Assembly: GCF_028641065.1 (NCBI RefSeq)
Contig: NC_073386.1
Location: 17,236,001 to 17,300,000 of the forward strand
DNA: 64,000 nucleotides
Reading direction: 5' to 3'
Source: Leucoraja erinacea
Lineage: Eukaryota
A program made the position numbers and the translations under genes. The notes beneath the pieces were generated by a model. That model ran no database searches. It was not told where the DNA came from and worked only from the letters and a program-made list of their open reading frames with translations. Positions 30,501 through 59,406 of this stretch are shown in pieces. How positions within the stretch are numbered: position 1 is the first letter of the stretch; each line of letters begins with the position of its first letter.

Positions 30501-31154
30501 CTCACATGCAGGATACTTTTCGTAAGATGCTGTTTTCCCAGTAACCACACACGCAAGTCAATAGCATGAAAGAGAAAATTAAAACCTACAATGGACTGAC
30601 CAATTAACAAAAAAGTAGTTGAGTGTAATAAGGTGTCATTTTCCAGTTTGTGCCTCTGATGACAAAGACCAGAACATCCAAGGCAAAATTACACGCATGC
30701 ATATTTTCAACTGAAAGCAGAATTGTCAAATATAAAGAAAATTCAATATTGATGTGGATTACTGGTTTCCATCATCATTACAAATGTTAGAAGAATATAT
30801 ATATATATATATATGGCTATAAACGCGGGTTTATAAACAGTATACAAATATTTGAGTTAACCTGCATGTCACGACACCGCAGAGAAAGTCAGCCTATGAA
30901 AAGCTGTGGCGATCCGCCTGCGTCTCATTGAAACTGATAAGTAATGACTCTTGATTATCCGCTGACAGATTCGATCATTCCATAAATAAGGAATCACGAT
31001 TTGTATTATTTCTAACGAGAACAGTGCTGAAAGCAACGAACAGGCGCACGACATAATGAGAATTAATTTAAAGCCACATGTTTCTATGGCGCCTTCAAGC
31101 CATCGCGGAGTTTAAACGCTGCAGTCTCGTTATTGGGGAAAACGCAGCTCTTAC

Positions 31155-31556
31155 CTCGACCTCAACCACCTCGTCATAAGCGGGTGGTGGATCAAACCCA
31201 CTCCGGCTGTAATCTCCTCCACCTCCACTCCCTCCACCACCGCGGGAACCGGTCCCTCCACCTCCACCACCACCGCCCCCTCCTCCGCCGACGCCGCCGC
31301 TTCCTCCTCCTCCTCCTCCTCCGCCGCCGCTTCCCCCTCCTCCTCCTCCGCCGCTACCACCGCCGCCGCCGCCGCCTCCTACTTGGCGGTCGCCGCTCTC
31401 CATAGGCTCGTAGCCGAGGCCAGGACTCTCGTTAGTGAGGAGGGCCACGGCCTCGTTAATGTCATTCTTGGCCATACGGAGCGCCTTGCGGATGGCGGCA
31501 GGCTCCGAGAAGCCCATGCACAGCAACGTCGTCATGTGCTCTTCCTCCACGTCCAT
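31155..31556 (-). CDS. USP24: USP24 exon 1 (UBA-like N-terminus plus poly-Gly tract)
   Basis: MDVEEEHMTTLLCMGFSEPAAIRKALRMAKNDINEAVALLTNE...GFDPPPAYDEVVEVE matches the recalled USP24 N-terminus; ATG 31556-31554; donor GAG|GTAAGA, phase 0. Confidence 0.96.
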
Positions 31557-31739
31557 CCCAGCAGACACAAGTCTGTCACTTCAGTCCTACTCTTCCATAG
31601 AGCCTGCACCTGATACAGGTCGCCTGCCTCAGGCTAACGCCGCGCCGGGCGTCCGGTTTCCTCACAAGCGTGCTGCGAAGACAGAATAACTCAGCGGGCT
31701 GTTATTCTGATTAACTGAAACAGTTATACTGGATCTGAA

Positions 31740-31850
31740 CCGCTCGGCGCCATGTTGACAAGAAGCAGCTTCCGGTTCCTACTTCGCCAGGCGAAGCCGC
31801 TCCCAATTAGCCGGAAGTGACGTCGCTGCAGGCGGGTAAAGGCACAGCGC
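31740..31850 (-). promoter_or_regulatory. USP24 CpG-rich core promoter
   Basis: YY1-like CAACATGGCGCC (minus, 31746-31757), CCAAT 31803-31807 and composite ETS-CRE CCGGAAGTGACGTC 31811-31824, about 200-270 bp upstream of the ATG. Confidence 0.7.
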
Positions 31851-31853
31851 CGG

Positions 31854-31982
31854 CATCTTTGTAAAGGAGCCCTTCCACACGACATCTTTGTAAAGGAGCC
31901 CTTCCACACGACATCTTTCTACAGGAGCCCTTCCACACGACATCTTTCTACAGGAGCAATTCCCTCCCATCTTTGTAAAGGA
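31854..31982. repeat. 29-bp minisatellite, about 4.5 copies
   Basis: Unit CATCTTTGTAAAGGAGCCCTTCCACACGA repeated head-to-tail without spacers. Confidence 0.9.
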
Positions 31983-32419
31983 CGATGGACACAAAATGCT
32001 GGAGTATCTCAGCGGGACAGGCAGCATCTCTGGAGAGAAGGAATGGGTAACGTTCCGGGTTGAGACCCTTCTTCCGACTGAGACTGAGACATTGATCTGA
32101 GACAAGGAAACGTAGAATACTTAATTGTAAACTATGGGGAAGGTGACGAAGAGTCATACAATCAGTAAAAGATTTAATTGGTGGTCATCCTCAAATTGCC
32201 GAAGGTCTGCGATCTAAAGTGGACCCCACAAGGAACTGCAGATGTTGGAATCTTGAGCAAAAAATACACAGTGCTGGAGTAACTCAGGCAACGTCTCTGG
32301 ACTTTCTCCGAGGGATATCGACCTGAAACGTTGTTCATCCATCTTCTCCAGAGATGCTGCCTGATCTGTTGAGTTACTCCAGCACTGTCTTTTTTTTTGT
32401 AAACCAACATCTGCACTTC

Positions 32420-36102: not shown

Positions 36103-38701
36103 GCTCTTGGGGGGGGGAGGGGGGGGGGCATAAAAACATCGTTCACAAACTGGCTGCGCTGATTTAATCAAACACATTTCAGAAAGCATACCTTCTCAAA
36201 GAATTGCGTGACATTTCTGAGATGAATGCCGATTGGTTCCATACTACTTGGCATATAACCAAAACCAGATTTGCCACACCAGGAGATTGTGGAGTAGATG
36301 GATTTTTCCTTCAACAACCCATTCCCTAACTCTAAACATTGTCAGCAGATGTTGATCACGTTTAGAGGCCCCTTAAGTAACTTCTGTGCGCAATGCTGAT
36401 ATCCTGTTTTGGCTAAAATAAAACATGGTGGTGTTGACGTTTTTGCTGCTCGCCTTTATAATGTTGCTGGTGACATGTAGGGAGTAACTGCAATTGTAGG
36501 CAATTGGATTTTAAGCTGTTTTGCTATTCAGCAAGATAATAATTGCTACCACAATGTTTTCTTCTGCACTATCCTTGCATCCCTTGATTCCATTAAGGTT
36601 CCAAAATCAGTTGACCACTGAATGAACTCAGTTACTCAGTCTCTACAGCCCCCTTGGGTGAAGAATTCCAAAGATTCACTACCATCCGAATAAAGACAAT
36701 TCTCCTCATCTTAGTCTGCAATGGTCCATCCCATATCCTGAGACCGTGAGCTTTGATTCCAAACTCCTCAATTTGGGAAACAGTCAGTTTGTTGAGCTCT
36801 GAAATCTCCCCTCATATATACTCTAGAGAATATAGACATGGCCGACTTGAACTCTCCGCATGGAGCAAACACGTTATTCCTGGATCCAATCCAGCGATTG
36901 CATGGTCAAATATTGGTGTTCCATGATTTGTTTTTGACTGGATTTATGGTTTAAAAAAAAGAGGCCTATCAATGCATCTTTAGTCTTAGTTTAGTTTAAT
37001 ATCTCTGTCTTCTCAGATTGAAAACTGAGGAAAAGCCCAAGCTATTTGGAGTAACTTTGAACATCTTTGGGCAATCAAAGGATGGTGTTGCCTTTCAAAT
37101 ATTTGTGGCAAATGCACTTTGTTTAACTACAGGATTAAAAAGAGATGGTTAGGTTGTTTGAATCATATCTGCTCAAAAAAAGGAATTGCTGGAAGAACTC
37201 TGGTCAAGCAGCATCTATGGAAAAATATATCAATTAGTGATTGATGTCAGTGCTCTTCCTCAGAACTGGAGGAAGAATAGAGGCTTTCAGTTTTCAAAGC
37301 AAAGTTGAGTGAGGAATAAGGCAAAGTACTACATAGAAATAAGACAGATCAGTTAATAAAGAGCAGAAGTACTTACCAGTGACAAGACATTTTAAAGAAA
37401 TACAGGATGAGAAAGGTTCAGGAACAGGATGTGTAGGAATGAACTGCAGATGCTGGTTTGAAACCGAAGATAGACACAAAAAGCTGGAGTAACGCAACGG
37501 AACAGGCAGCATCTAAAGAGAAGGAATGGGTGACGTTTAGGATCGAGAACCTTCTTCATGAGCAGGATAATGGGAAAAGATTAAAGTGTGGTCTACCTGA
37601 AATTTTTTATCTCGTGAGTTTTCAAAATGCTTAGACAGAAGCTAAGCTGTTGTTCAAGTTGCACCGGGCCTTGCAATGACAGTGAGGATGCCACCGACAG
37701 ATGGGTCAGAATGGGAGCGGGGCTGGAAATTGAGGCATACAGCTGGAAGCTGGGGGTCGGCCCTGTGGATTGAGTGTCTGCTTCTGCTTTCTCCAATGTT
37801 GAGGAAGTCACACTGTTAAACACCAAATGCAGTTTTTCATACATCTGCTCCTTAGCCTGAGAATGGTGTCTCTGAAAATACGTGTTCGTTCTACATGATG
37901 GATCAGAATCTAAAATATTGATGTGCAGATTTGGAGGTTGCACAGGGGCGCAGTTGCCTCACAATTCCAACGATCTGGGTTCAATCCTGATATCCAATGC
38001 TTCCTCTGTTGGTTTTGCACATGCGCAGCTCCCTACATGTGGGTTTCCGCCAGGTGCTCCATTTTTTAACTGAATCTCATGGACTTGCTGGCAGGTTAAT
38101 TGACCACTAAATTGTCTCAAGTGTGTAGTTGAGTGATAGAATCTGGCAGGAGTTGAGTATAATGTGGGCGAATCAAGTGGGATTAATGTAGATGGTGGAC
38201 CAGAGGATTTGTTTCTATGTTGTTTGTCTCTGACTCCTAAAAGCATATTACTGTAGAAACTGGAGATACTCAGCAGGGCAGTTTAGAATAAACATTTCAA
38301 GTGATAAATTTTATTTAATCATTGCCCTGGATTATTTAAATGTTTCTCTTTCCACAGATGTTGCATAAACTCATTAGCATTTCCAGGAACGTGTCACTAA
38401 CATATAATTATCTTTTAATGAAACCAGAAGAAATTGGTAGGCTATTCTGGCTAAGTGCGCAGAATAAATGGCATCTATTGGGTTTGCCTTTTTAAGAGAA
38501 AAATTCTGAAATAGGTCAACTGAACCAAATGTTCCACTCCGAATCTGTCTGTAAAAGTTACTTGAACTGGGCTTTATGTCAAATTTTACAGAGTAAAATT
38601 GACAAACAGGATAATTGGAGTCTTCTACATTTAAATTTTTCAATTTTAAAATAAGTTTTTCTTTATCTAATCCAAATTTTAGGAACGTGCAAGGGATCGT
38701 G

Positions 38702-38904
38702 ATGGGATTGCAGCGATCATTACTCATCATTCTTGTGGGGGCAGCAATCACTCTGGCAGCAGCAAACAATGACACCAGAATCTGTCAGGTGGCTCCTCAC
38801 TGGGAGATTGGAAACCAAAGTCCAATGGAGCAGCTGTCTGGGCAACTGGTTGTGGTGGCCCTTCTCAAAGCAAGCTGACAGTTCTGCCTAACGCAGGCTG
38901 CTAA
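38702..38904 (+). CDS. SELENOP2: Selenoprotein Pb first coding exon (signal peptide, Sec59)
   Basis: MGLQRSLLIILVGAAITLAAA-NNDTRICQVAPHWEIGNQSPMEQLSGQLVVVALLKAS-U(TGA 38876-38878)-QFCLTQAA(K). VVVALLKASUxFCLTQAA is the SelPb signature; acceptor at 38682, donor AA|GTAAGT. Confidence 0.95.
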
Positions 38905-39331
38905 GTAAGTATGGCACTTTACCTAAACTGTTCTTGTACAAATGTTCTACACCATCATCTATGCAAGAGCATTGGCTGGTGACTTGCTGTCGACCCTTTC
39001 TCTCATTATCTGTTAGCCAGTGCATGAGAGTGCCAAGAAGTGACAAGCTCTTGCTTTTCATTTCCTCTCATCCACTCTAGGTCGATGGTAGAGAGGAAAA
39101 CAACCCTTTTGTTCAATGGCTTTTCTCTGGTAGACACAAACCAAGAGATTATGTTGTCAAGAACTGCAGATGTGAAACGATATGCTGGTACAGACATCAA
39201 AAGTACTGAGGGCTATTTTTATAAAGTGTTCTTGGAAATTAACTATTCCTTATTGTTTATATGGTGATTGAGACCGTATGTTAAAACATAAACTTTATTT
39301 CTATTATGAAACTTTTGATTTGGTCATGTTT

Positions 39332-39775
39332 GGCAAGTTTTCCCATCAAGGCTTACAGAATTTACATTATGTTATTGTGAATGAGAAAATTCTTGAATCC
39401 AGGGCCATTTAGTTTAGACATACAGCGTGGAAACAGGCCCTTCGGCCCACTGAGACCGCGCTGACCAATGATCACCCATACACTAGTTCTATCATACACA
39501 CAAAAAGACAATTTGCAGAAGCTGATTAGCCCGCATGTCTTTGGAATGTGGGAGGAACCCGGAGCACCCTGAGAAAACCCATGCGGTCACAGGGAGAACA
39601 TACAAACTCTGTACAGACAGCACCCATAGTCAGGATTGAACTCTTGCACTGTAAGGCAACAAGTCTACCACTGTGACACTGCTTCCTCAAGCTTTGACCA
39701 TGCTTTGGAAACTCAAACAAAATACTCCCATGAGTATCACTATTTACCAGCAATCACTGTTTCAAGCTGATGTTT
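39332..39775 (+). pseudogene. Degenerate duplicate of SELENOP2 exon 2 in intron 1, split by a SINE
   Basis: GKFSHQGLQNLHYVIVNEKILESRA[SINE]MLWKLKQNTPMSITIYQQSLFQADV aligns with exon 2; no AG acceptor or GT donor at the equivalent positions. Confidence 0.85.
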
Positions 39776-40080
39776 CACATTTTTTTCCCTTATTAAAAGA
39801 TTTATTTTACAATAAGAAAAATATTTCTTAGAACCGATTACTGTTGTCTGTTGCTTTAGAAACATTTCAGATTCAAAGGTAAATAATAAAGATAGCTTGT
39901 GACATTGCTGGATTCAGTGAACAAAAAGTTTATCTTTCGAAGCATTCTGTGACACCATGAGATCACTAGGCATACGCATTTTAAAAACAAAATGAAATTT
40001 GAAATCTCTAACCTGCATACTTGCCTTCACACTACACTCAGTAAAGTAATGGTATTGACGGCTTGCATTTTTTTTAATAG

Positions 40081-40293
40081 ATTAGGCATTTTGCGTGACA
40101 AGCTTTCCCTTCAAGGCTTGAAGAATATACATTATATTATCGTGAATGAGAAAACACTTGAATCCAGGGCCATGTATTGGAAACTCAAACTGAAAACTCC
40201 CAAGAATATCACTGTTTATCAGCAATCAGCGTTTCAACCTGATGTTTGGCGCATCCTGAGGGGGAACAAGGATGACTTCCTCATCTATGATAG
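40081..40293 (+). CDS. SELENOP2: Selenoprotein Pb coding exon 2
   Basis: LGILRDKLSLQGLKNIHYIIVNEKTLESRAMYWKLKLKTPKNITVYQQSAFQPDVWRILRGNKDDFLIYD(R); 213 nt; contains the SelP_N motif KDDFLIYDRCG. Confidence 0.95.
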
Positions 40294-41187
40294 GTTCGTA
40301 TTTTTAGTTGTAGCACTGAATCGAACATTGTTGTTAAGCAGGTTCATTGATCTCTTCAAATATTTGTGTATACTAGTTAAGTATTGGTAAGACCACTGGG
40401 AAAGTTGCAATACCTATGTTGTACTTTTGTATGATAAAGAAATTAAGAGCAATCTTTTGCTTTACCAATTGGGGAATGGCCCTTTGGTTCCTTGCCAAGT
40501 AACCATGTAGAGTCCAGTTTGCCATTATCACCAAACCAGATCTGCTGCTCCTTGACGTGCATGCAACCATCAGCAATAGTAAGACACAAAATGCTGGAGC
40601 AATTCAGCAGGTCAGGCCACATCCCTGGAGAACGTCGATGGGTGACATCTCGAGCCGTGCCCCTAGCCAAAACGACACATATCCTTGTTCTCCAGGGTTG
40701 CTGCCTGATCCACTGAGTCACTCCAGTACTAGGTGTCTTGTTATTGTAAACCAGCATCTACAGTTCCTTGTTTTATATAATCAACAAAACTAATCTTGCT
40801 TGATATGTTATATTTTTGTCCCTTTTTTTATTCGGGTGAGGCAGACGAGATTTGTAAATTATGTTGGCCAGGAAATAAGTTTAGAATTTTTTTGGTCTGG
40901 GTGGCACAAAATCAAGATGGCCCTTTTTGCCACCATGATACTAGCTATTATTTTACAAACTGAATGGTTGTTGAGGTCTCGTGTTTACCTTGTAAATCAG
41001 TTTCAACTCATAATGTTATCTGAATGGTTTCCTTTACAGATGCTGCCCAACGAGCTGAGTTCCATCAGCAGTTTGTTTTTTTACTCCAATTGTATTGTAA
41101 TTTAAATTTGGAAGTGGGATTGCTTGCTTTGTAATTTGCCTGGTTAATTCAATGTTTGTGAATTTTTCTTTTTTATCTTTCCCCTAG

Positions 41188-41320
41188 ATGTGGCAAATTG
41201 ACCTTTCATATCACATCTCCATACAGCTACCTTAACTTTCGCTATGTTGAAGCGGCAATCATGGCTACATATAACACAGATTACTGTGGGAACTGCATGG
41301 GCAGCAGTACCACTCTGGAG
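41188..41320 (+). CDS. SELENOP2: Selenoprotein Pb coding exon 3
   Basis: CGKLTFHITSPYSYLNFRYVEAAIMATYNTDYCGNCMGSSTTLE; ctag| acceptor, GAG|gtaatt donor. Confidence 0.93.
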
Positions 41321-41614
41321 GTAATTGTTAGCATTAATCATGTCTCGGAAAGATTGCACTGATGGCTGGTAAGGGGGGGGGGGGGGGGGTCACAATAGTT
41401 TAAAAAGTGTTTGTGGCATCTTTATTCCTGAAAATGTCATAGAACAATGCATCAGTAAATTAACTACTAGACTGATTTTTTTTTCAAAGGAGACTGAAGC
41501 CATCCTTTTCTTTTCTTGTAACCTCACCGTCATCTATAGAGTAAATTATATTCATTCTAATACCACAGGTTTGAAAAGCATGACTTTTGAAACTCAATTT
41601 TGTTATTGCAACAG

Positions 41615-41683
41615 GCGACCAGCTACATCTCAACTGGACCCAACTGGGAATATTCTCAACATCATTCCAGGAGCTTGAAATAA
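41615..41683 (+). CDS. SELENOP2: Selenoprotein Pb probable terminal coding exon
   Basis: acag|ATSYISTGPNWEYSQHHSRSLK-TAA, phase 0, upstream of the SECIS. No recognisable homology, so less certain. Gives a 205-aa protein. Confidence 0.6.
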   Translation, partial: ATSYISTGPNWEYSQHHSRSLK

Positions 41684-42373
41684 AGATATTTTAAGATTGG
41701 AGAATAATGGAAAAAGTTTCCTTCACAAATAAGAGCCAAATGTCAATATTGATCCCTATGCTGCAAGTAAGAATTCCTTTCTTTCGTTTTGGGACATATG
41801 ACAATAAAATACTCATATTGATGTAAGGATGCTAGTTTGACATTTGCTATCTTGAGGTAATATTGTTTTTATTTGAGGATGAATATATATAATATCACAT
41901 CTTTTTAATCCCATTCATTCTGATAATCTGCACATGACTGCAGTCTAATCTGGCATTAATGATGAGTATTGATAGTGAAATCATGATGAAAGTAAATTAC
42001 TACCCCAGTTAACTAACGGGGGAACTTTTGTGGCCCCTTTAATCCACCCCACTGCCCCCCCACCTCATTGATCCAAAGCATGTATCAATCCAGCTGTTCT
42101 TATGAATATAGGAAAACAAGTGATCTAGTCACCATGATCTCACCTGAATCCTGTGTTCTTTTGCATCTCCTACATGGAGATATATGTGGGGTACCAAGAA
42201 TAAGCTAAATTGGGACATTCCTTGTTATCCACAAAGATAGTAGAATGTTTATTGTGGGAAGGGAAGATGAGGAGGAATGTTGGATTATTACCTTCACAGA
42301 GATGCTCTATGTTAAATATTAATATTTTGATTTGGCTTTTGATGTATTATTCAGTAGAACCTATTTCTATGGT

Positions 42374-42446
42374 GTTCTTGTGCTCAATGATGTCTAAGGT
42401 TCAAGCTAGGTACTAGTAGCTATAGACTGACCACTGCACAGAAAAC
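42374..42446 (+). promoter_or_regulatory. Type-2 SECIS element
   Basis: ATGAT (42387-42391) / TGAC (42428-42431) GA quartet; upper stem GTCTAAGGTTC vs TAGCTATAGAC (9 of 11 pairs including GU); apical AA 42403-42404; ministem CTAG-gta-CTAG; lower stem TTCTTGTGC/GCACAGAA. Confidence 0.88.
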
Positions 42447-44464
42447 TTAAAGGAAAAGTTTTTAACTGATTTGTACAGATTGTCACCACCATTCCGATCA
42501 TAAGACGAGAAGATTTTTTTAAATGGGCATTAGGCCCCGAGTTTATTCTGCCATTGAGTAAGATCATGACTGATCCAACTTTCCTTGTCCGTCTTCTCTA
42601 CCACACCCTTGATTCTCCTCCTGATTAAAACAAGTTATCTATGTCAGCTTTGAATATATTCGATTCGGCCTCCATAGCATTCTGGGGCAAACAATTCCGA
42701 AGACACTCAAACCTTTGAGATAAAATCTCTTTCTGCATTTATTACTTCCTCCCTGATTCCCTGAAGTCTTAGATTATATCATGTAGCCAACAATTATCTA
42801 GCATTTACCTTGTCAACTTCTCTAAGACTCTTGTATGTTTCAATAAGAACATCTCTCATTCTTCTCGGCTTCAATGAATGCTGACCTTTCTTCCTAACAC
42901 ATCCCTCCATACACAGGATGTACTCGAAGAACATCCCTTTATGAAATTGACTCAATCAAGGGTTCAAAAGGGTATTTGGTATGTGCTTTGCGGAAAAATA
43001 ACTTGCAAAGCAAAGGAGAAAGAGTATGACAATGGGGTTCAGCAGTATTTTCAATAAGGAGCCAGGTGGGTTATGTAGCCTCTTCTTGTATCACAGTAGT
43101 TTTGGGAAATGGTACAGCATCCTTGTGATTTGCCCAAGATCAATTGAATGGAGTCAGATATTGAATTTACAGCATTAGTGCTTTGCCAACAATATTTCCC
43201 TCTAGTCCATTGCATCTGATGGAAGTAACTTGGTGTTTAACAAGGATTCCATCCGTTGCTACCAATGCTTCTGTTCTTCAACTTCATTTGGGGATTTTGT
43301 ATGCACATGAATATCTAGCAACTCAGGTAGTTTCCATCCTTTGGACATTTTTTTCATCCCAATTGTTACCTTGCTTTGATTTGCATAACTGAAACTCTTG
43401 GAAACTGGAAGGAAGTGCCCTTTTGGCCTAATGCATAAGGAATCCGACGTTAGTGTTTGATGTCACATCATCAGAAGATTGCAGGTTGGAGTCCTGTCAC
43501 GGTCATTAGTGGCAGCACAGTGGCACGGCTGGTAGAGCAGCAAACTCTCAGCACCAGTAACCCATATTTGATCCTGACCTCTGGTGCCGTCTGTGTGGAA
43601 TTTGCATGTTCTCCCTTGTGTGCTTCCTCCAGGTGTTCCCACATTCCAAAGACAGTCAATCCCAAATTATTGACTTCTTTAAATTGCCCCAAACGTAGGG
43701 AATGGATGAAAAAGTGGGGTAATATAGAAAAGTGTGAACAGGTGATCGATGATCGCGTGTGCTTGGTGGACCCATGGGCCTGTTTCCATGCTCTATCTCT
43801 AAACTACTCTCTTTCAATCTGCATGTTGTCAGGTGTGTGTGGTATTTGTGTTTACTTATTCGGTGCTGTTACTAATTTTAGTTTGTTTCATGTTTCCAAC
43901 ATCTGCATTTTTTTGCCTTTTTATTATGTAAAATTTATCTCAATGAAAAATGTAATTATCTTTTTAATAACCTAAACTGGTGATCAATAAATAGCTATTG
44001 AAATTGAATGTTGAGGGTTTTCTTTCAATTACAACATAAACAAGTGAAATGAAAAAAATATCCAAGTGATTCCAAGTGACATTTAAAAATGTACAAGCGC
44101 TGGTGTGGTTATAATTTTGAATGCAATGTTTCCAATTCTAATTGCTATCTCAGCCATTTTCTTCCACCCAGATTCCTGCAGAACTCTTCCAACCATCAAA
44201 TACTACATATGATTCTCCTTTGAAACATCAAATAATTGTAGAAACAATTTGTAATAGAAAAAAATCACGTGGTTAAAGTGCACATTGTCAGATTTTAATA
44301 AAGGCCATTTTTATACATTTTGGAAACCAGAGCACCCAGAGGAAGCCCACACAATCTCAGGGAGAATGTGCAAACTCCATAGACACCACCCCAAGGCAGG
44401 ATTGAACCTGGGTCTCGGGCGCTGTGAGGCATAAAGTCTCCCACCTGGGCCACTGCGTCACGCA

Positions 44465-46810
44465 CAGTTAGATCGCATGGGATACAGGGAGAGCTGTGAG
44501 CTGGATATGTAATTGGCTTGATGGTAGGAAACAAAGGATGATGATGGAACTTAGATTTTTGGACTGGAGGCCCATAACTATTTGCTCACTGGTCTGCGCT
44601 GGACACATTGTTGTTTGTCATTTATATTGGCAACTGAGATGAGAATGTGTTAGGCATAGTTAGTAAGTTTGGAGGTAACATAGTTAATAAATTAGCAGGT
44701 GACACTAAAATAGTGGTATTGTAAACAGAGAGGAAGGGTATCAAGAATTGCAGCAGGATGTGGATTAGTTAGGCAAATGTAGCAATGTTACAAAATTTTG
44801 AGATTTAAAAAATCAAGTCTGCAATTTATCCCATCAGATAAAGCATAACAATAAGTTTAATTTGACACCTAATTCACTTTCATATCTCAAGTAATAAAAA
44901 AGTTATGGCCATTTTCATACTCGGAAATTAGCATCTTGTTCCCTATTGATTTTCTATGGACATAACAAAAAAGCTGTGATCATGGACAGTCAAAAGCCCA
45001 TAACCTTCTTAAAAATTAAGAGAACTGAATGAAATTTTCAGTTATCATAGATTGAACCATTCTGAAACAAATATAAAATAATCTTACTTGGAGGACCTGA
45101 AATTAAAGCATATAATTAGTTAGTTACCCAATTGTAGCTAATTTCAAACTTCAATTACTAGATCTAAACATCTATCCATTTCTTAATAAATGATTAACAT
45201 TTTTAAATAGCCTAAGTGTCCAAATAATATTCACAAATAATTCACAATAAAACATGATTTTAAAATCTCATTTACATCAATTTATAGGTCAAATGGAAGG
45301 AATTTAGTGTTCAATTGCTGTAAATTAAAGTCTATTTTAAATCGGCTTTCTAGTGGGTTCCTGTGAACGCGCTGGTTTAGAACGTTCACATTGCGCTGGA
45401 TTTGTGCCCTCAAATACCCAGAAAAATACTGCGGGATATAAAGAGCCCAAAATGAACTATTCGCTATAGAAAACTTTATACACAGGGTTCTTAAGAAGCC
45501 CCTTTTAATGTAAAAATAAGGTACATACCTTTAATTGTTTGCTTTATAAAACCCTGGGGCTGCGAGAGGTTGCGGGTTTAGAGAGTGATTTTTAAACTAC
45601 TATAACTATTATACAAGGCCATAAAAACTAATAATACCTTTTGCGACGGGGTCTTTCAGCGATTTTCCGTTAATGATTTACTAGGCTGAACATTTTCGAT
45701 TGCAACAGCCTAGTAAAAATCGTGTTTTAAACCCGCCCCCTCTAAACAGCGCCAAAATCACACACACGGGGCTGGGACAGATTCTCAGACACAATTCAGG
45801 TAGGTTTTGTAACATACCTAGCAAATGGGCTGAGGAATGGCAAATGGAGTTCAATTAGGAGAAGTGTGAGATATTGCATTTTGGGAAGTCAAACTAAGAT
45901 AGGACTTTCGCAGTTTAAAGGTAGGCCCTTGGGGAATGTTATAGAACAGAGGGATGTAGGTGGTCGATACACAGTTTAGTAAGAAAACTTTTGACATGCT
46001 AGCCTTCATCAGGCACCGAGTATGACTGCCATGTAGTTGTAAATGTTGTGAGGCCACACTTGGAGTACTGTGTTCATTTTGGTCACCCTGCTATAGCAAA
46101 GATGTCATTAAGCTGGAAAGAGTGCAGAAGAGATTTATGAAGATGTTGCCAGTCCTCCTATTGTGGAAATAAGTTGTGCATGCTCTGACTTAATCTCCTC
46201 TGTTGCAGGGAAATAGAATCATGAGGGAATAGATAGGGTGATGATTGCACCCCTTTACCCAGAATAGGGGAATCAGGAACTAGAGTTGGGTTGAGTGGAG
46301 TGTTTCCATGCTGCATGACTAATTGAAATCTGGAAACCACACCTTGAATAAATGAGGATACAATTTAATGTGAAAGGTGCATGATTTTATGGGAACCTGA
46401 TGGGCAACTTTTTCACCCCAAGGGTGATGCATATGTAGAACAAGTTACTGAAGAAAATGTTGAGGCAAGTATGATAGCAACATTTCAAACTCATTTGAAC
46501 AGGTGGAGGGATAGGAAAGGTTTAGAGGGATATAGGCCAAACTCGGGTAAATTGTACTAACTTAGATATGTACCCAATGGAGCGAAGGAATATAGGGTAC
46601 ACATATTCTTCTGAAGAAGGGTCTCGACCTGAAACATCACCTATTCCTTCACTCCATAGATGCTGCCTCACCCGCTGAGTTTCTCCAGCATTTTTGTCTA
46701 CCTTCGATTTTTCCAGCATCTGCAGTTCCTCCTTAAACATAGATATGTACCCTGGTTGGCATAGGCAAGTTGGGTCGAAGGGTGTGTTTCCATGTTGTAT
46801 GACTCTTTAG
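44465..46810 (+). mobile_element. Old CR1-type LINE carrying nested insertions
   Basis: Degenerate RT motifs on both sides of the 44780-45820 insertion; CR1-like 3' end near 46800. Confidence 0.75.
44780..45820. mobile_element. Non-autonomous hAT-like DNA element
   Basis: Imperfect TIRs TAGCAATGTTACAAAA / TTTTGTAACATACCTA, flanked by direct repeat GCAAATG; no ORF. Confidence 0.75.
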
Positions 46811-47125: not shown

Positions 47126-47733
47126 CTAATGCTTCTGTTTTTCTGGTGAACCTAATGGTTCACTCTTTTTAGATAAAACAATGCAGGGTTGCTTTTCACC
47201 ATGCTCCATCTTACAGCTTAGAATTTTAGCAAAGGATTTAGCTGAAGTAGGGGAGGTGAAGATTTTCTTGAGAGATTTTGTCGAGTTTGCAAATGAAATG
47301 TGTTTGACTTTACCTTTGGGCGTACTATGTACGTACCTGACTGCACCTGAAGCAACATTGACTGCTGATTTTAGGATAGACCGATTTCTATTTGGGGGAC
47401 TGCTAAAGGCATTTGCTTTATGATCAAATGCAACTGTGGTCCTTGGTGTCTTCTTGTACCTCGGTGCTAATGCATTCTGAGTCATCCAAATGTTTATTTT
47501 GTTGCATTCTTCATTATCTGAGGAACATGATCCAATTTTAATGGATAAATCGTTGTTATTCTTAATCCAGTGTAATAATGGATGATACACTGTTGTGCAA
47601 TGTTTCATGACACTTATCCATTCTGCTATCTCTTTTTTCCGATTTCTATTCTTCCTCAAGTGTAACAGGCAACAGGTAATGGTTGTTAATATCATGCATG
47701 CTCCAAAAATAACAAAAAAGGGTAAAACCCAAT
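47126..47733 (-). CDS. TEX38: TEX38-like protein (THEG4 family), main coding exon
   Basis: WVLPFFVIFGACMILTTITCCLLHLRKNRNRKKEIAEWISVMKHCTTVYHPLLHWIKN aligns without gaps to recalled human TEX38 [58 protein letters not shown]; acceptor ttttcag|AT, phase 1; AATAAA on the minus strand at 47054-47049. Confidence 0.85.
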
Positions 47734-49157
47734 CTGAAAATAAAGCAGAAGGAGATCAAATAAAATATTGCCTTTTTCGCCTCCAATACTGAATGCAAAT
47801 GGTTTCAATATGTCTGGATTACTGCCTTAATTCTCTTCCAACCTTTCTATTTTGCATTCCTGAATTTCTAGCTACAAACATAATTAGAATTGGTGTTGCC
47901 TATAATAAGGCAATATAAAGGGGTATAAGGTGGAGTATTTTATTAAAGAAGTCTATAACTTCAAATAGTCACCAGGGATAAGTGCCAGAAACTGATCAGT
48001 AGAGAGTCATGGCAGAAACATACAAAAATGCTATAGTCATAGAGTTGCCCAGTACAAAACAAACCATTCTGCTTAATTCTGACTTCCATGCACTCATGTG
48101 CACCAATCTCACTGTTTCCCTCCCATCCACATTTAACACCCTCTTTAATCTCCTGCCACCCAACTATAATCAGAGCAGTTTACAGTGGCCATTTAAATAC
48201 CAACCAACATCTCTTTGTAATGTGGGTGGGCACATAGCCATAAGGAGAATGGGGGAATTCTGCAGAGACAGCATAGTCCTACCTTCTTATCTCTAAAATG
48301 GTGGAGATTGTGAATCTAGATGGCTGAAGCTGTGAGGATGAGTGATCACACTACCCTCTCTTTTTTTTTTTTACAGGGCCTCAAACCTTTGAGGCTGGAG
48401 AGCCATTTTCACCTAGTCACAGATAATTCTAGTCCAAAATAGTTCTAGTTCAAAATAGGTGCTAAAACATAAAATGATAGAAATGATCAGCATATCTGGC
48501 AGTATTTATGGACCGAGATTAGTTAGCGTTTCAGACTACCAGCCTTTCATCACAGGTTGGTCCACTGCATGTTTTCAGTATGCAGAAATTACAGGGGCTA
48601 ATTATACCCACAAGCATATCTTTATTGGACAAGGGGCTGGGGAGTGGGAGTGCTGGGTTGAGGTGAGTTTTGGCAGTAATTAAAGATCTCGCCCTGACAT
48701 TATGTACGGCTGAAGAATTTGGGCTATATTTTTTTCTTAGTTCGGGCATTCTTTAACATACCATAATTACTGATTGCCTCAACTAGCCTCCTTTCATTGC
48801 TGATGTATTAAACTATGCTGACACATTTGCCCAATATTAGCCAAGCACCAGTCCCAATTCACAACTTCCAACTGCCCTTCCACTCTGGGATCTTCCCTTT
48901 GACACAATTGCTTCACAATATCCACCATTTAGTGATAGAAAGGTAGGATCAATCCTACTGCAATAAAGCCTATGATATCTGAGGTGTTTCATGATGCATG
49001 GAATATCCATGATGCATAGTTCAGGAGTTCCTATAATATTTAAAGAGAGGACGTTTCTGCTCCTCTGATCCTGGATATCAGTAGAGCATCCTATAAGAGC
49101 ATCCGCAGAGACGGTATCAGATATGGTGGTGAAGTGCAGTTGGTGTCAATAATTTAC

Positions 49158-49161: not shown

Positions 49162-50754
49162 GGTACAATGTATGCTAGGGTGATGTCACAAAGAACAGTG
49201 TATGGCCGATCAATTGAAGGCGCAAAGGATGATTCCTCGGACAGCTGGAAAAAAAAAAGGACTGTCACTTTTGTTAAGATACATTTAACGTGATTGGAAA
49301 AGTAATCAAAGTGACACTAGGGAGGTCCTCCATTCAGTTAGGATCTAGAATCCAACGTCACAGGTTGAAGCGCAGTAAGATTCAATTCAAATGTCCAAGG
49401 GGGAGTAGGAAATGTATTGAACATAGAAAGAATCGGACTGGGACTAACTGAATGCTCTTACATGGAACTGATGGAGTTCGATGGATTGAATGTGCTGTGT
49501 AATGACGTTTCAGTAATCGCGGGAGTGGGGTGTGAGATTGCAACCTTCACGTGGTCCGCCCTGTTTCGACGAATGCAATCAACCTCGTGTGCACAATCAA
49601 ATAATATTAAATAGAACAAGTTGTCCTACAATTTTAGGCTGTACACGCCTTACACAATAAGAAGAATCATGGGAGTGTCTGCAAACAAAATAAAAAGTGA
49701 GGCTGCATTTTAGTTTATTTAAACTGTAGGAGTAAACCTTGATATTATGAGCCTATATGACAATGGATTTACGTTGGGACATCGCGTAACAAAGCACAAG
49801 TTCTTTCTTTAAAATGTGGTTTAAATCCTTATGATATTGCATACTTACTGTTTGGTATTATCATATGAATTGGGGGAATAATTTCAGAGCCCTCAGCCTT
49901 AAAGACTCAGTCCTGGCCCAGTGCCCCTTTAGTATGGAATGTAATTTCTATGACGCTGATCTCTGTGACATGGTCGCACTCGAAGTAAGAACATGCTTCG
50001 TTTCCACGGGCTCGGGAGTCTGGACCTCGAGTCCATTCCCCAGCTCCATCAGCACCAATGTAAAAATAAACCCATCAAATCCGTACCAGATCCATGTAAG
50101 AGCAATCCAGTTGGTCTCAGTCCTTCCCATGCCTTTGCAAAATATTTCCATTTTAGATATCTGTCCTAATTCCCTTTTGAACATCGGAATCGGAACATGC
50201 ACTGATACACTGACAATGAATTGCAGACAAAGACACAAAATGTTGGCGTAACTGGCGGATCGGGAAGCATCTCTGGATAGAAGGAAAGGGTGACGTTTCG
50301 GGTCGAGATCCTTCAGATTTTTTTTGTCTATCCTCGGTGTAAAGCAGCATCTGCAGTTCCCTTCCACACAAATTCAGAATTCTAGATCATCACCGCCCAA
50401 TGCAGGCGTTGCTGGCACCCTGACAGAAGGAAGAGTAACAATGGTACGTGACTGAGGAAGAGGTTAACAAGCAGGGAAGTGTCTAAGATGTGCAGGGAAG
50501 AACTGCAGATGGCTGCTGGTTTACATCGAAAGGTAACAGACGCAAAATGCTGGAGTAACTCAGCGGGACAGGCAGCATCAAATATCATAGAGCGCTCTGT
50601 GATCTTTGGGCAGCATCTCTGGGGAGAAGGAATAGGTGAAGAAGGGTCTCGACCCGAAACGTCACCCATTCCCTCTCTCCAGAGATGCTGCCTGTCCCGC
50701 CCGCTGAGTTACTCCAGCATGTTGTGTGTGTTGTCTATAATGCACCAGCAACAA

Positions 50755-55133: not shown

Positions 55134-56554
55134 GTTTGAGTTAATTTGATGCAACTTGTTTCTGAAGAAGATGAAGAATTGAATGGGTGAATGGACAGTC
55201 TTTTACCCAGTGTAGGGGAATTGAGAACCAGCGGGCATAGGCAAGAAGGGTGAGATTTAATAGAAAACTGAGGGGCATCCTTTTCACTCGGAGGATGGTG
55301 GGTATATGGAATGAGCCACCTGAGGAGGTAGTTGAGGCAGGGACCATAACAGCATGTAAAAGACACTTGGACAGATACATGGATAGGAAAGGTTTAGAGG
55401 GATATGTCAAACACAGGCAAATGGGACTAGTTTAGATGGGGCTTCTGGGTTGGCATGGACAAGTTGAGCTGGGCAGTATGACTCTGACTCAAAGACTAAT
55501 GTACAATCAATATAAATGCAGTGAGTATTTCAGCTGCTTTCGCCCTCGTACAGTAATACAGCGTGGAAACAGACCCATCAGCCCAATTGCCCATAACGAC
55601 CAACGTCCCACCTGCCTGCATTTAGCCCATATCCCTCTAAACCTATCCTATCCATGTGCCTGTCTAAATGTTTCTTAAACGTTGCGATAGTACCTCCCTC
55701 AACTACCTCCACCGGCAGATCGCTCCATACACCCACCGCCATTTGTGTGCAAAAGTTATTCCTTACGTTCCTATTAAATCTTTCTCCCATCGCCTTCGTG
55801 AATGGGAAATAGTGCCTGTCCTGTAGGCTCCACGTCAAGAATTATCAGGCCTTGGATTCAAATTTCCATTTCTTTTTTTAGGTAAATGAAAATGATTCCA
55901 TTGTATAAATTTGCACATGAGAGAGGAGGTTAAGGAGAAATAAGTGGGAGAATGGGCGCGAACATAGATTTGGTGGGTTAATTGGCCTCCTACATGTAAG
56001 GGAAAGTGAGAAATAATAGGAACGTCAATTAACTGTTTAGATAGGAATGACCCAAATGTATTGTCCTAAAGTAACTTCTCTTGGAATTAGATTCATGAGC
56101 AGTTCCGTATGGAATTATTCATCTTTAGCATAGTGATTTAAATCCATTCTGAAATGAGTAAGCAAGATTTTTACTAAACTGATGCTATTTAAAATTAAAA
56201 GAAATTGGTCCAGCTGGAAAATGTATAAACAATATTTGTCTAAACATATTAGACAAATATTGAAAATGACATTGTGACAGATTATTGCAGTACTTTCCAA
56301 GATGATGTTCTGTTGAAGGGTAGGCCATGTGTGACCTAAGTAATCCCATATATTCATTATATGTAACAGTCTTGTTGTTTGGGAGAAGTGGAGAACAGAA
56401 AAGAGGAACTTCCCAAAAGAAAAATGGATAAGAAGCAACAGATTTGAAGCTTTGAATTATCAATGAGTGGTGATAGCTTGAGAAGATCAATTATTCTTTG
56501 TGTATTTTTTTCGGATTTGCAGAATTATTTCAGTATTTATCTCTGTTTATGTAG

Positions 56555-56775
56555 CTGCTGTGTGGATGAAGTTGCTGCTGAACACCTTGATGCTGACAGT
56601 ATAATACATTACGGAAGAGCATGCCTCAGTCCTACCAGAAGGCTCCCAGTAATGTATGTGTTTGGACAAAAGTCTATTGATCTGCATCAATGTGCAGACT
56701 CTTTCCGAGTACTCTACCCAGACAAGTTTACACCCGTTATCATTCTGTGTGATGTCATCTACTCCCACGCACTTG
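56555..56775 (+). CDS. DPH2: DPH2 exon
   Basis: CCVDEVAAEHLDADSIIHYGRACLSPTRRLPVMYVFG...DVIYSHAL; 221 nt, AG/GT flanked. Confidence 0.96.
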
Positions 56776-57376
56776 GTAAGAGTTTGGTTATATTTACTCT
56801 TCCCTTGGCGTATCCTTTTTCTCCCAACTAGAAAGTTGGAAGTAGAGACTTTCTTACGATGAGGAGCTTGGAATCTTTTGGACTTAGGTTATGTCCTTTA
56901 AGTCTTTGGTGCTATCATCAATTAATATTTTTTTTCTTTTCTTAATGGACTCGAAAAGAATCAATAAATGAGACCACTCCTGTGTGGTTAAAATGTTTTT
57001 TAAGGCAATTCCTTTAACAGTAATTGTTTAAAAAAAAAAACCCCAAAAAGAGCACACTTTCCTCTACCCTTGTTACACAGATATTCTGGGATCCAAGTGT
57101 ATTTGATTGTCGATTTCAGCTGCAACATAATCAGTGTACCTTGATATATTTATACTGATTACTTCAAAGATTGCCCGATGCAGACTGGTTGTTCATATTA
57201 TCTTCATAATACATTAAAAATTTGGTATGATATAGCTGAATGGGAGTTGATTCTCAAAACGATACTTATAAAGTTGCGCATTAAATGAACGCATAAGTAA
57301 ACAATTTCTATCCCTTGCTTTTTGTAGCCATTCATTATGTGGGCTTGTCTAAGTAATTTGTTTGATCTTTTATTAG

Positions 57377-58093
57377 AAGACCTACAGCAGCTACTTCAAC
57401 CAGAATATGAAAACCTTGTTGTTTCGGCAGTTTGTTGTTCTAGAAATGAAACAACTGAACCCTGCAGTGTTGATGGCCTTCATGATGAAAGTGAAGTTGA
57501 TGTCCAGAAATCCTGTAACCGTGCAAGCGATGAGCCAAGCCTTCAAGTTATTAATAAGTTTGGCCGACAATTTACTCTTCATGATGCCAGGAGTGTGGAT
57601 GACTACAATATGTTCTACATTGGACAAGAGAGTCTAACGTTGACAAATTTTATGATGACTTGGAATCAGTGTTCATTCTGCACATTTGATCCAGTGAAAG
57701 GAGTTGGGAGGCATGAAGCTGTGAATATTAACAAGGCTTTAATGAAGCGATACTACATGATCGAAAGAGCCAAGGATGCTCAAGTTGTGGGAATTCTAGT
57801 TGGAACTCTAGGGGTTGCTGACTATCTCTCTACTATTGATCATCTTAAATGGATTATCAAACAGTCTGGCAAAAAGAGCTACACCTTTGTAATGGGTAAA
57901 TTGAATGTTGCCAAGTTGGCTAATTTCTTAGAGGTAGACATATATGTGCTGATAGCTTGTCCAGAAAACTCTCTGTTGGATTCCAGTGAATTTTATAGGC
58001 CAGTTATCACGCCATATGAGATGGAGGTTGCTTGCAATCAAGCAAGGAAATGGACTGGAGAGTACGTTACTGACTTCAGGGACCTCCTTCCAG
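57377..58093 (+). CDS. DPH2: DPH2 large exon
   Basis: ...KRYYMIERAKDAQVVGILVGTLGVADYL...GKLNVAKLANFLEVDIYVLIACPENSLLDSSEFYRPVITPYEME...DLLP; 717 nt, phase 1-1. Confidence 0.97.
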
Positions 58094-59406
58094 GTGCGTC
58101 TATAGTCACATATTCATGCTTCAATTAACCATAAGTTTATTCTGCATTTGGCTCAAATGATCACAGCCAACTAGAGTATTTCATGTGTATATCGAATATA
58201 AAATCTACTCCCTCCATTAAAAAATAACTAAAATGCAATTGCAGATTTCTTGAGTCTGCTGCTGTGCCGAAATTGATTAGGTTTCAGGTAAATGGAAATA
58301 AACATAGCTGTAATTCTCTTGGCTCTACCACATGGGAAATGATAGGGTACAACATGACCATATTTTAAACTGTGGGACCATACAAGACTGCCAGTAGTGG
58401 AAAACAAAAAATTGTAGCTGTGTTTTGTTTTCAATATAAAATGACCAAGTGTTATAAACATTCACACACATGTACCTCTCAGACTGTTTAGTGATACAGC
58501 GTGGAAACAGGCCCTTCGACCCTCCATCGACCAGCAATCCCCCTACACTCTAGGGACAAAATATACAAACTTTACTGAAGCCGACCCACACTCTTTACCC
58601 ATGTGAATATTGTACTGTGGGTTATTCCTCACAATGTGCCTAATTGTACAGCAGGGAACCCGACCCTTCAGCTTGCTGAGTCCACACTAACTATCAAGCA
58701 GCCATTTTACTATAATCACTTTTTCTTCTCCCCTCATTCCATGCATCTCTCCCTGAGATTCTGTACTCACCTACACACCAGAGGCATCTTACAGTGGTCA
58801 ATTAACCTACAAAAATCTTATTCTGAAGAAGGGTCCCAACCCATAATGTCACCTATCCATGAGTCTGAAGAAGGGTTCCGACCCGAAATGTCACCTATCC
58901 ACATTCTCCGGGGATGCTGCCTAACCCACTGAGTTACTTCACTGTTTTGTGTCTATTCAACCTACAAAACCGCAAGTCTTTGGAATATAGGAGAAAACAT
59001 TGTGGGGGAAACTCATGCAGTCATGGAATATGTGTAAACTCCACACTGACCGTACCAGATGTCAGGTTTGAACAGGGGTTATTGGAGCATTACCAGCTAC
59101 ACCACTGAGCCACTGTTCTTGGTTAAGGTAGTTATCAATTGCATATCCACAGCTAATCAGGATGAAATTGAAAACCGTTTACTGTGTGAGCAACCTCAAA
59201 GATTAAACGGGATGAAAGAACAGTTTATTACACCATTCAGCTCCTCGGGTGTGTTGCTAACCCTCCTCTCCTTGTTGTGATTTTTTTTTTCCCCTCTTCC
59301 CTAATCCAGACTGAAATAACCTCGTAAACAATACCGTAAGTATGTGCTAGGTTTTAATGGAACGATAACCGTTTTCATTAAGTGTCGGTGACATTCTGCT
59401 TCACAG

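What the first reader, a model, noticed from the sequence alone, without database searches (positions are those of the whole stretch)
38702..42446. Complete UGA-recoding cassette: single-Sec selenoprotein Pb hidden from the ORF track
Seen: the ORF track stops at TGA 38876-38878, but SelP-like sequence continues in frame (KAS-U-QFCLTQAAK) to a canonical donor and two more SelP_N exons, and a well-formed type-2 SECIS lies about 700 nt after the probable stop. Established: SELENOP2/SelPb has one Sec in a UxxC thioredoxin-like motif and is absent from placental mammals. Inference: this is a functional secreted selenoprotein that automated annotation may truncate or split.
Basis: partly seen in the sequence, partly recalled or inferred. 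Interest (0 to 1): 0.7.

Follow-up and report, generated by a model that had tools for sequence, protein, structure and literature searches.

The report
Short-tailed fish selenoprotein P2 gene
This is an ordinary, spliced and transcribed selenoprotein P2 gene of a cartilaginous fish (likely a skate or ray): one UGA 'stop' codon inside its reading frame is likely read as selenocysteine with the help of a hairpin in the mRNA tail, and the only twist is a shortened protein end that likely arose when the last splice site moved.

Summary
ATG 38702, in-frame TGA 38876-38878 (codon 59, UxxC), four coding exons and stop TAA 41683 give 205 aa. All three junctions and a 3' UTR to about 44008, carrying the SECIS-like hairpin (42379-42440), lie on single transcript contigs from two studies. 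A tree puts the protein in the SELENOP2/SelPb clade; the genome's second SelP gene (contig C3) is the multi-Sec SELENOP1. Against: Rfam scores the hairpin 17.4 bits (cut-off 35), but the second SECIS of SELENOP1 also fails (19.3). Shark orthologues are reported to carry Cys, a known lineage change rather than a refutation. Sec insertion, secretion and enzyme activity are inferred, not shown. The gene is known (PMC13134290), and the scan noted it before in another genome (e1-10281194). Low interest.

The parts
38681..38904 (+). First coding exon (ATG 38702): predicted signal peptide and start of the thioredoxin-like domain; an unmapped 5' piece of about 40 nt precedes it in the RNA contigs
   Evidence: contigs X1, X7: no other letters over 38681-38904
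38876..38878 (+). In-frame TGA, codon 59, first position of UxxC (U59-Q-F-C62); likely selenocysteine
   Evidence: same column as the TGA of the C3 paralogue
39331..39775 (+). Dead copy of exon 2 inside intron 1 (39331-39411 and 39698-39775, 85-86% identical), split by a repeat insertion at about 39409-39697; acceptor and donor not kept
   Evidence: dN/dS 0.87 over 49 codons; skipped in RNA
40081..40293 (+). Coding exon 2, SelP_N positions 47-116
41188..41320 (+). Coding exon 3, SelP_N positions 118-158, Cys-rich part
41490..41678 (+). Open frame behind an in-frame AG with a poly-T tract (41490/41493), not seen used in RNA; about 41520-41651 resembles the shark SelPb tail; ends at TGA 41676-41678. 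Likely the ancestral last exon, now partly intron
   Evidence: best of 2120 six-frame peptides, E 0.005; not covered by contigs X1, X7
41615..41683 (+). Coding part of the last exon as spliced: 22 codons and TAA
41684..44008 (+). 3' UTR, about 2.3 kb; AATAAA at 43986 just before the end of the contigs
42379..42440 (+). Type-2 SECIS-like hairpin: AUGA 42387-42390, AA 42403-42404, GA 42429-42430

Best explanation
This is an intact, spliced and transcribed SELENOP2 (SelPb) gene whose single in-frame UGA is likely decoded as selenocysteine by the type-2 SECIS-like hairpin in its 3' UTR, giving a 205-aa protein predicted to be secreted and to act as an extracellular thioredoxin-fold oxidoreductase through its UxxC motif. 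Shown: exons, junctions, TGA and hairpin on one transcript; clade; thioredoxin-like predicted fold with UxxC at the start of the helix after the first core strand. From established knowledge: SBP2 binds the SECIS core and recruits eEFSec with Sec-tRNA (recalled); the matching N-terminal Sec of human SELENOP reduces phospholipid hydroperoxides using thioredoxin or glutathione (PMC8193087). Inferred: the same chemistry here; no role as bulk selenium carrier, since the Sec-rich tail is missing and the C3 paralogue has it. The short, His-poor end likely arose when splicing moved to an acceptor about 125 nt further into the ancestral last exon, in another frame.
For: Contigs X1 (3020 nt) and X7 (2997 nt), from two studies, join all four exons and run through the hairpin; raw reads of X24 span junction 1 (20 reads) and junction 3 (26). 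9 of 11 cluster members are the full 205 aa with W at position 59, all 11 end in the short tail, and P0127 stands on 33 contigs. SelP_N in three exons. Tree of 32 rows: window in the Pb clade (100/100), C3 gene in the Pa clade (100/100). C3 gene has 14 TGA in a His-rich downstream frame and two SECIS hits. The 26-nt UGA-to-intron spacing and type-2 SECIS are as described for the family (PMC5133445). Model pLDDT 82, top matches thioredoxin-like. In DNA runs X15 and X17 of two related organisms the only change within the hairpin is 42391 T>A, the variable letter after AUGA.
Against: Rfam score 17.4 bits against a cut-off of 35; folding z -1.41. Hairpin conservation is not above its flanks: 1 change in 64 nt against 9 in 347 nt in X17, no compensatory change. 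X24 lists 0 raw reads over junction 2 (both contigs have it; the tool drops human-like reads). The RNA runs differ from the window by 10-13 letters and 10 gap letters over 2.4 kb of UTR, so they may be a close relative, not the same species. No signal-peptide predictor was run (hydropathy only). Nothing here measures Sec insertion or activity. The tail-remnant match is modest (E 0.005).
Confidence: 0.87

Rival explanations
1. The SECIS is decaying and the UGA acts mostly as a stop: the gene is on its way to becoming a transcribed pseudogene, or is read through at low efficiency.
For: Low Rfam score, weak folding z-score, shortened tail and a dead duplicated exon; sharks are reported to have given up Sec at this gene (PMC13134290).
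Against: The frame after the UGA is intact, 60-64% identical to shark orthologues with the near-invariant residues of a 52-sequence alignment kept. The hairpin keeps AUGA, AA and GA in two related organisms. A true SECIS of the paralogue scores as low (19.3 bits). The spliced mRNA is present in several studies.
Confidence: 0.07
2. It is a truncated or mis-assembled SELENOP1 (SelPa) rather than SELENOP2.
For: Same Pfam family and the same exon phases as SELENOP1.
Against: A separate multi-Sec gene lies on contig C3; the tree splits the two at 100/100; the named top hits are SelPb/P2.
Confidence: 0.01
3. Besides the 205-aa form, a minor or tissue-specific isoform uses the upstream acceptor at 41490/41493, keeps the shark-like tail and meets a second UGA (41676-41678), ending at 245 aa or, read as Sec, at 263 aa.
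For: In-frame AG with the better pyrimidine tract (12 of 15 against 9 of 15 for the used site), an open frame and similarity to shark tails; 263 aa is close to the shark lengths of 253-262.
Against: Contigs X1 and X7 leave 41490-41612 uncovered and join straight to 41615; 11 of 11 cluster members have the short tail; no such junction among the 15 joints shown (133 more were not shown).
Confidence: 0.1

Closest known systems
Vertebrate SELENOP2 / SelPb / Sepp1b (PMC13134290, PMC5133445, PMC3316567, PMC2397514)
   Same: One Sec in UxxC of a thioredoxin-like domain, one type-2 SECIS, intron 26 nt after the UGA, no Sec-rich tail, same clade.
   Different: Only 30 residues and 2 His after the last CxxC, against 77-88 residues in six sharks and 64-102 residues with 6-11 His in eight frogs; the His-rich region that PMC2397514 ascribes to both forms is absent. 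Dead exon-2 copy in intron 1.
Shark SELENOP2 ('selenoprotein Pb-like', six species)
   Same: Closest named relatives, 60-64% identical; the tail remnant in intron 3 resembles their C-terminus.
   Different: Reported as Cys homologues (PMC13134290). The six records show C, but the pig SELENOP record also shows C at its known Sec site, so these records cannot confirm it independently. The window has TGA and a SECIS-like hairpin.
SELENOP1 / SelPa (human SELENOP; G000:C3 about 10.327-10.339 Mb)
   Same: SelP_N domain, UxxC, exon phases, 213-nt second coding exon.
   Different: SELENOP1 has His-rich and Sec-rich C-terminal regions and two SECIS elements and carries selenium in plasma; the window gene has none of these.

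Membership tests
SELENOP2 (SelPb) | SelP_N thioredoxin-like domain | tested here: met
   Pfam PF04592 over the cut-off in three exons; predicted fold matches thioredoxin-like structures
SELENOP2 (SelPb) | Single in-frame UGA at the U of UxxC | tested here: met
   One TGA, codon 59, Cys at 62; unchanged in RNA contigs
SELENOP2 (SelPb) | Falls in the SELENOP2 clade, apart from SELENOP1 | tested here: met
   IQ-TREE, 32 rows, 100/100 split, midpoint root; one search
SELENOP2 (SelPb) | One type-2 SECIS in the 3' UTR of the mRNA | tested here: inconclusive
   Pattern, fold and place in the transcript are met; Rfam full-length alignment at 17.4 bits, under the cut-off of 35; the control SECIS2 also under; SECISearch3 not available
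SELENOP2 (SelPb) | Intron 26 nt after the UGA | tested here: met
   26 nt; spacing described in PMC5133445
SELENOP2 (SelPb) | No Sec-rich C-terminal domain | tested here: met
   Spliced frame ends at TAA 41683 with no further TGA
SELENOP2 (SelPb) | Signal peptide / secretion | tested here: inconclusive
   Residues 7-18 are the most hydrophobic stretch (mean 2.95), three N-glycosylation sequons; no predictor run
SELENOP2 (SelPb) | His-rich region (described as typical in PMC2397514; not treated as defining, because named shark and chimaera members lack it too) | tested here: not met
   2 His in 30 residues; sharks 4-5 in 77-88, chimaera-type records 0-1 in 20-27
SELENOP2 (SelPb) | Conserved neighbourhood (syntenic with human chromosome 1, PMC6301783) | tested here: inconclusive
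   Neighbours carry UBA, THEG4 and diphthamide-synthesis domains; the names USP24, TEX38, DPH2 and their human location are recalled; the paper's figure was not visible
SELENOP2 (SelPb) | Sec actually inserted; oxidoreductase activity | not testable with these tools
   Needs a reporter, 75Se or mass spectrometry, and an enzyme assay
SELENOP1 (SelPa) | Multi-Sec C-terminal domain | tested here: not met
   Absent here; present at the C3 locus, 14 TGA in one frame
SELENOP1 (SelPa) | Two SECIS elements | tested here: not met
   One candidate in the 2.3 kb UTR (this filter found only 1 of the 2 elements at C3, so a second could be missed)

The most novel reading that the evidence does not exclude
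In this lineage the last exon of SELENOP2 was partly turned into intron, but the old acceptor (41490/41493) is still used in some tissue, giving a long isoform with the ancestral tail and a second UGA that the same SECIS recodes: a splice switch between a one-Sec and a two-Sec SELENOP2.
Probability: 0.06. Interest if true: 0.55.

Novelty: already known. Interest (0 to 1): 0.2.

Why it matters
Mainly for annotation: public gene calls of this very gene read the UGA as Trp, start at Met99 (107 aa) or run through introns (132 aa). For selenium biology it is the Sec-keeping counterpart of the shark Cys form, 60-64% identical to it, so the pair allows a natural Sec-versus-Cys comparison; its tail is so short that it is close to a bare catalytic domain. 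The five paper searches listed no direct functional study of SELENOP2, though I read only six papers in part. None of this is surprising to a specialist.

Tried and rejected
Rfam at gathering over the window: 0 matches; at E<=10 over 41600-44500: no SECIS among 11 matches. Genome-wide RF00031 search returned only 2 matches from 129 scored of 38759 candidates, so its silence on this element is uninformative. No run holding the stretch is on record as RNA; X1, X7, X11 are guessed RNA contigs, X22 and X24 are RNA raw reads added by species label. Run X21 gave no cover of the hairpin: no conclusion. Early polyadenylation at AATAAA 41679 or 41803 (mRNA without SECIS): no read-end peak in X24, not supported. 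The exon-2 copy as an alternative exon or part of a duplicated gene: rejected, since changes fall 8/8/6 on the three codon positions, the splice sites are gone, RNA skips it and no copy of exons 1, 3, 4 or the hairpin is in the window. PDB sequence search: 0 matches. The ESM Atlas did not hold the upstream gene's exon, so its name stays recalled. The 5' non-coding piece was not mapped. The salmonid SECIS table held no text; the SELENOP tree in the supplement of PMC13134290 was not seen (file cut), and it would show directly whether ray SELENOP2 is listed with Sec. No earlier scan note near this place.

Full report
OBSERVATION. The coordinates are right. ATG is at 38702 and TGA at 38876-38878; GT donors follow 38904, 40293 and 41320, AG acceptors precede 40081, 41188 and 41615. 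Splicing these gives 618 nt: 205 codons and TAA at 41681-41683, with one TGA, at codon 59, and Cys at 62. Exons 1-3 match Pfam SelP_N at profile positions 1-45, 47-116 and 118-158 (52, 93 and 51 bits, cut-off 23.2); exon 4 matches no family. The UGA lies 26 nt before the first junction, the spacing described as conserved for selenoprotein P (PMC5133445, passages).

TRANSCRIPT. I laid 4 of 24 listed runs on 36200-45500. Contigs of X1 (3020 nt) and X7 (2997 nt), from two studies and guessed to be RNA, join 38681-38904, 40081-40293, 41188-41320 and 41615 to about 44000, with no other letter in the TGA exon. So the TGA and the hairpin sit on one spliced sequence. An AATAAA at 43986 precedes the contig ends. 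Raw reads of X24 (about 5% of the run read) span junction 1 (20 reads) and junction 3 (26); none is listed over junction 2, and the tool warns that human-like reads are dropped. X22 gave one junction read. About 40 nt at the 5' end of the contigs did not map to the stretch. The runs differ from the window by 10-13 letters and 10 gap letters in the UTR, so they may come from a very close relative.

SECIS. The hairpin at 42379-42440 begins its core 704 nt after the stop and has AUGA, 12 nt, AA, 24 nt, GA; helix I of 5 pairs, helix II of 9 pairs, the AA in a one-sided loop and a 5-pair helix above it. That is the type-2 form described for Sepp1b (PMC5133445). Results against it: Rfam SECIS_1 does not report it at the gathering score or at E<=10 over 2.9 kb; in a 121-nt scan it aligns end to end at 17.4 bits, cut-off 35; folding z is -1.41. 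Controls: in the paralogue's 3' region Rfam gives 41.1 bits for one SECIS and 19.3 for the other, and a genome-wide search finds only 2 elements, so a miss is common. My own pattern-and-energy filter finds this site alone in 64 kb on both strands and fires in 4 of 500 shuffled UTRs; its thresholds were chosen after seeing the element, and it finds 1 of the 2 paralogue elements. In runs X15 and X17 of two related organisms the hairpin has one change, 42391 T>A, at the variable position after AUGA; X11 is identical; X21 gave no cover. With 1 change in 64 nt against 9 in 347 nt of flank (X17), this does not show conservation above background.

IDENTITY. The genome has two SelP_N loci, this one and one on contig C3 (6 matches, 3 each). 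The C3 gene has a downstream His-rich frame with 14 TGA codons and two SECIS hits: SELENOP1. A maximum-likelihood tree of 32 rows (30 chosen from 122 database hits, plus the two genes) splits the Pa and Pb groups at 100/100, with C3 in Pa and the window in Pb, inside a 97/99 group of six sharks, two chimaera-type rows and a long-branch coelacanth row. The window is outside the shark and chimaera subgroups, so a skate or ray is my inference. An AlphaFold2 model of P0005 (identical to the window protein but for W59 and R120; 52-sequence alignment) has mean pLDDT 82, with strand 49-55 followed by helix 60-78, and its best PDB matches are thioredoxin-like proteins such as ResA and CcmG, as PMC2397514 reported for the family (passages). 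Neighbouring frames carry UBA (31098-31580, minus), THEG4 (47129-47755, minus) and diphthamide-synthesis domains (56448-58125, plus); USP24, TEX38 and DPH2 are names I recall, not tool results.

ORTHOLOGUES AND ANNOTATION. Six shark records show C at the Sec column. PMC13134290 (section on SELENOP read whole) states that SELENOP2 is single-Sec, lost in Eutheria and converted to Cys in Anura and in sharks; four ray genomes appear in that study's other trees, so a Sec form in rays is implied in print, though I did not see the SELENOP tree. The records themselves cannot prove Cys: pig SELENOP also prints C there. Of 122 database proteins aligned, 39 show C, 12 W, 49 a gap and 22 another residue at that column, in line with frequent mis-annotation. 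For this gene, 9 of 11 cluster members have W at 59 and 2 start at Met99, and a 132-aa call runs through both introns around exon 2.

MECHANISM. Shown: gene, splicing, UGA, hairpin on the transcript, clade, predicted fold. From knowledge: SECIS-bound SBP2 and eEFSec deliver Sec-tRNA to the UGA (recalled); the N-terminal Sec of human SELENOP reduces phospholipid hydroperoxide with thioredoxin or glutathione, while the C-terminal Sec-rich part carries selenium and binds ApoER2 (PMC8193087, passages). Inferred: a hydrophobic N-terminus and three sequons point to a secreted glycoprotein that works as an extracellular thiol oxidoreductase or peroxidase and not as a bulk carrier. I put 0.9 on Sec decoding and about 0.6 on the peroxidase-type activity.

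(1) Intron 1 holds a copy of exon 2 (39331-39411 and 39698-39775, 86% and 85% identical) split by a repeat of about 290 nt with CCAT on both sides. Over 49 codons the changes fall 8/8/6 on the codon positions and dN/dS is 0.87; the splice sites are not kept and RNA skips it. It is a dead exon. (2) The protein has 30 residues after its last CxxC; six sharks have 77-88. A profile of the six shark tails, run over 2120 six-frame peptides of the window, hits best at the frame 41373-41675 (E 0.005, next best 0.25), aligning at about 41520-41651: inside intron 3 and on into exon 4 in a frame other than the spliced one (tblastn gave E 9e-5, 8e-4, 0.002 and 0.058 for 4 of 6 sharks). An in-frame AG with a poly-T tract stands at 41490/41493. 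The simplest reading, at about 0.65, is that the last acceptor moved some 125 nt downstream and cut the tail. Use of the old site would give 245 aa ending at TGA 41676-41678, or 263 aa if that UGA were recoded. The RNA seen speaks against it: both contigs and 11 of 11 cluster members use 41615, though 133 joints were not shown. I found neither feature in the paper searches, none of which was aimed exactly at them.

PAPERS SEEN. PMC13134290: passages, one section whole, a search of its cut supplement. PMC3316567, PMC5133445, PMC8193087, PMC2397514: passages. PMC6301783: passages; its SECIS table gave only a title and its synteny figure was not visible. All others: search listings only.

VERDICT. 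A real, intact orthologue of a described gene; the scan noted the same gene in another genome (e1-10281194), which is not independent support. Interest 0.2.

Noticed in passing
window 39331-39775: Dead duplicate of exon 2 in intron 1, split by a repeat of about 290 nt flanked by CCAT; neutral pattern of change.
   Followed up: yes
window 41490-41678: Open frame behind an in-frame acceptor not seen used, resembling the shark SelPb tail and ending at a TGA; likely the ancestral last exon.
   Followed up: partly
G000:C3:10327320-10339030 (L007, L008): Multi-Sec SELENOP1 with a His-rich region, 14 TGA in the last coding frame and two SECIS hits (41.1 and 19.3 bits).
   Followed up: partly
window 30800-32200: CpG island with a UBA-domain first exon on the minus strand (USP24-like, name recalled), head to head with the selenoprotein gene; the unmapped 5' piece of the selenoprotein mRNA might start here.
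   Followed up: no
window 47129-47755 (-) and 56448-58125 (+): THEG4-family frame (TEX38-like) and diphthamide-synthesis exons (DPH2-like); names recalled. A 141-aa frame at 49951-50373 (-) has no Pfam match.
   Followed up: partly
window 41679-41684 and 41803-41808: AATAAA signals upstream of the SECIS, one overlapping the stop codon; their use would give an mRNA without SECIS, but no read-end peak was seen in X24.
   Followed up: partly
L012 (G000:C25:30372343-30372409, -): A further Rfam SECIS_1 match (36.1 bits); its gene was not examined.
   Followed up: no
P0023: A named swordfish SelPb record shows W at the Sec column; real Trp or a misread UGA, not checked.
   Followed up: no
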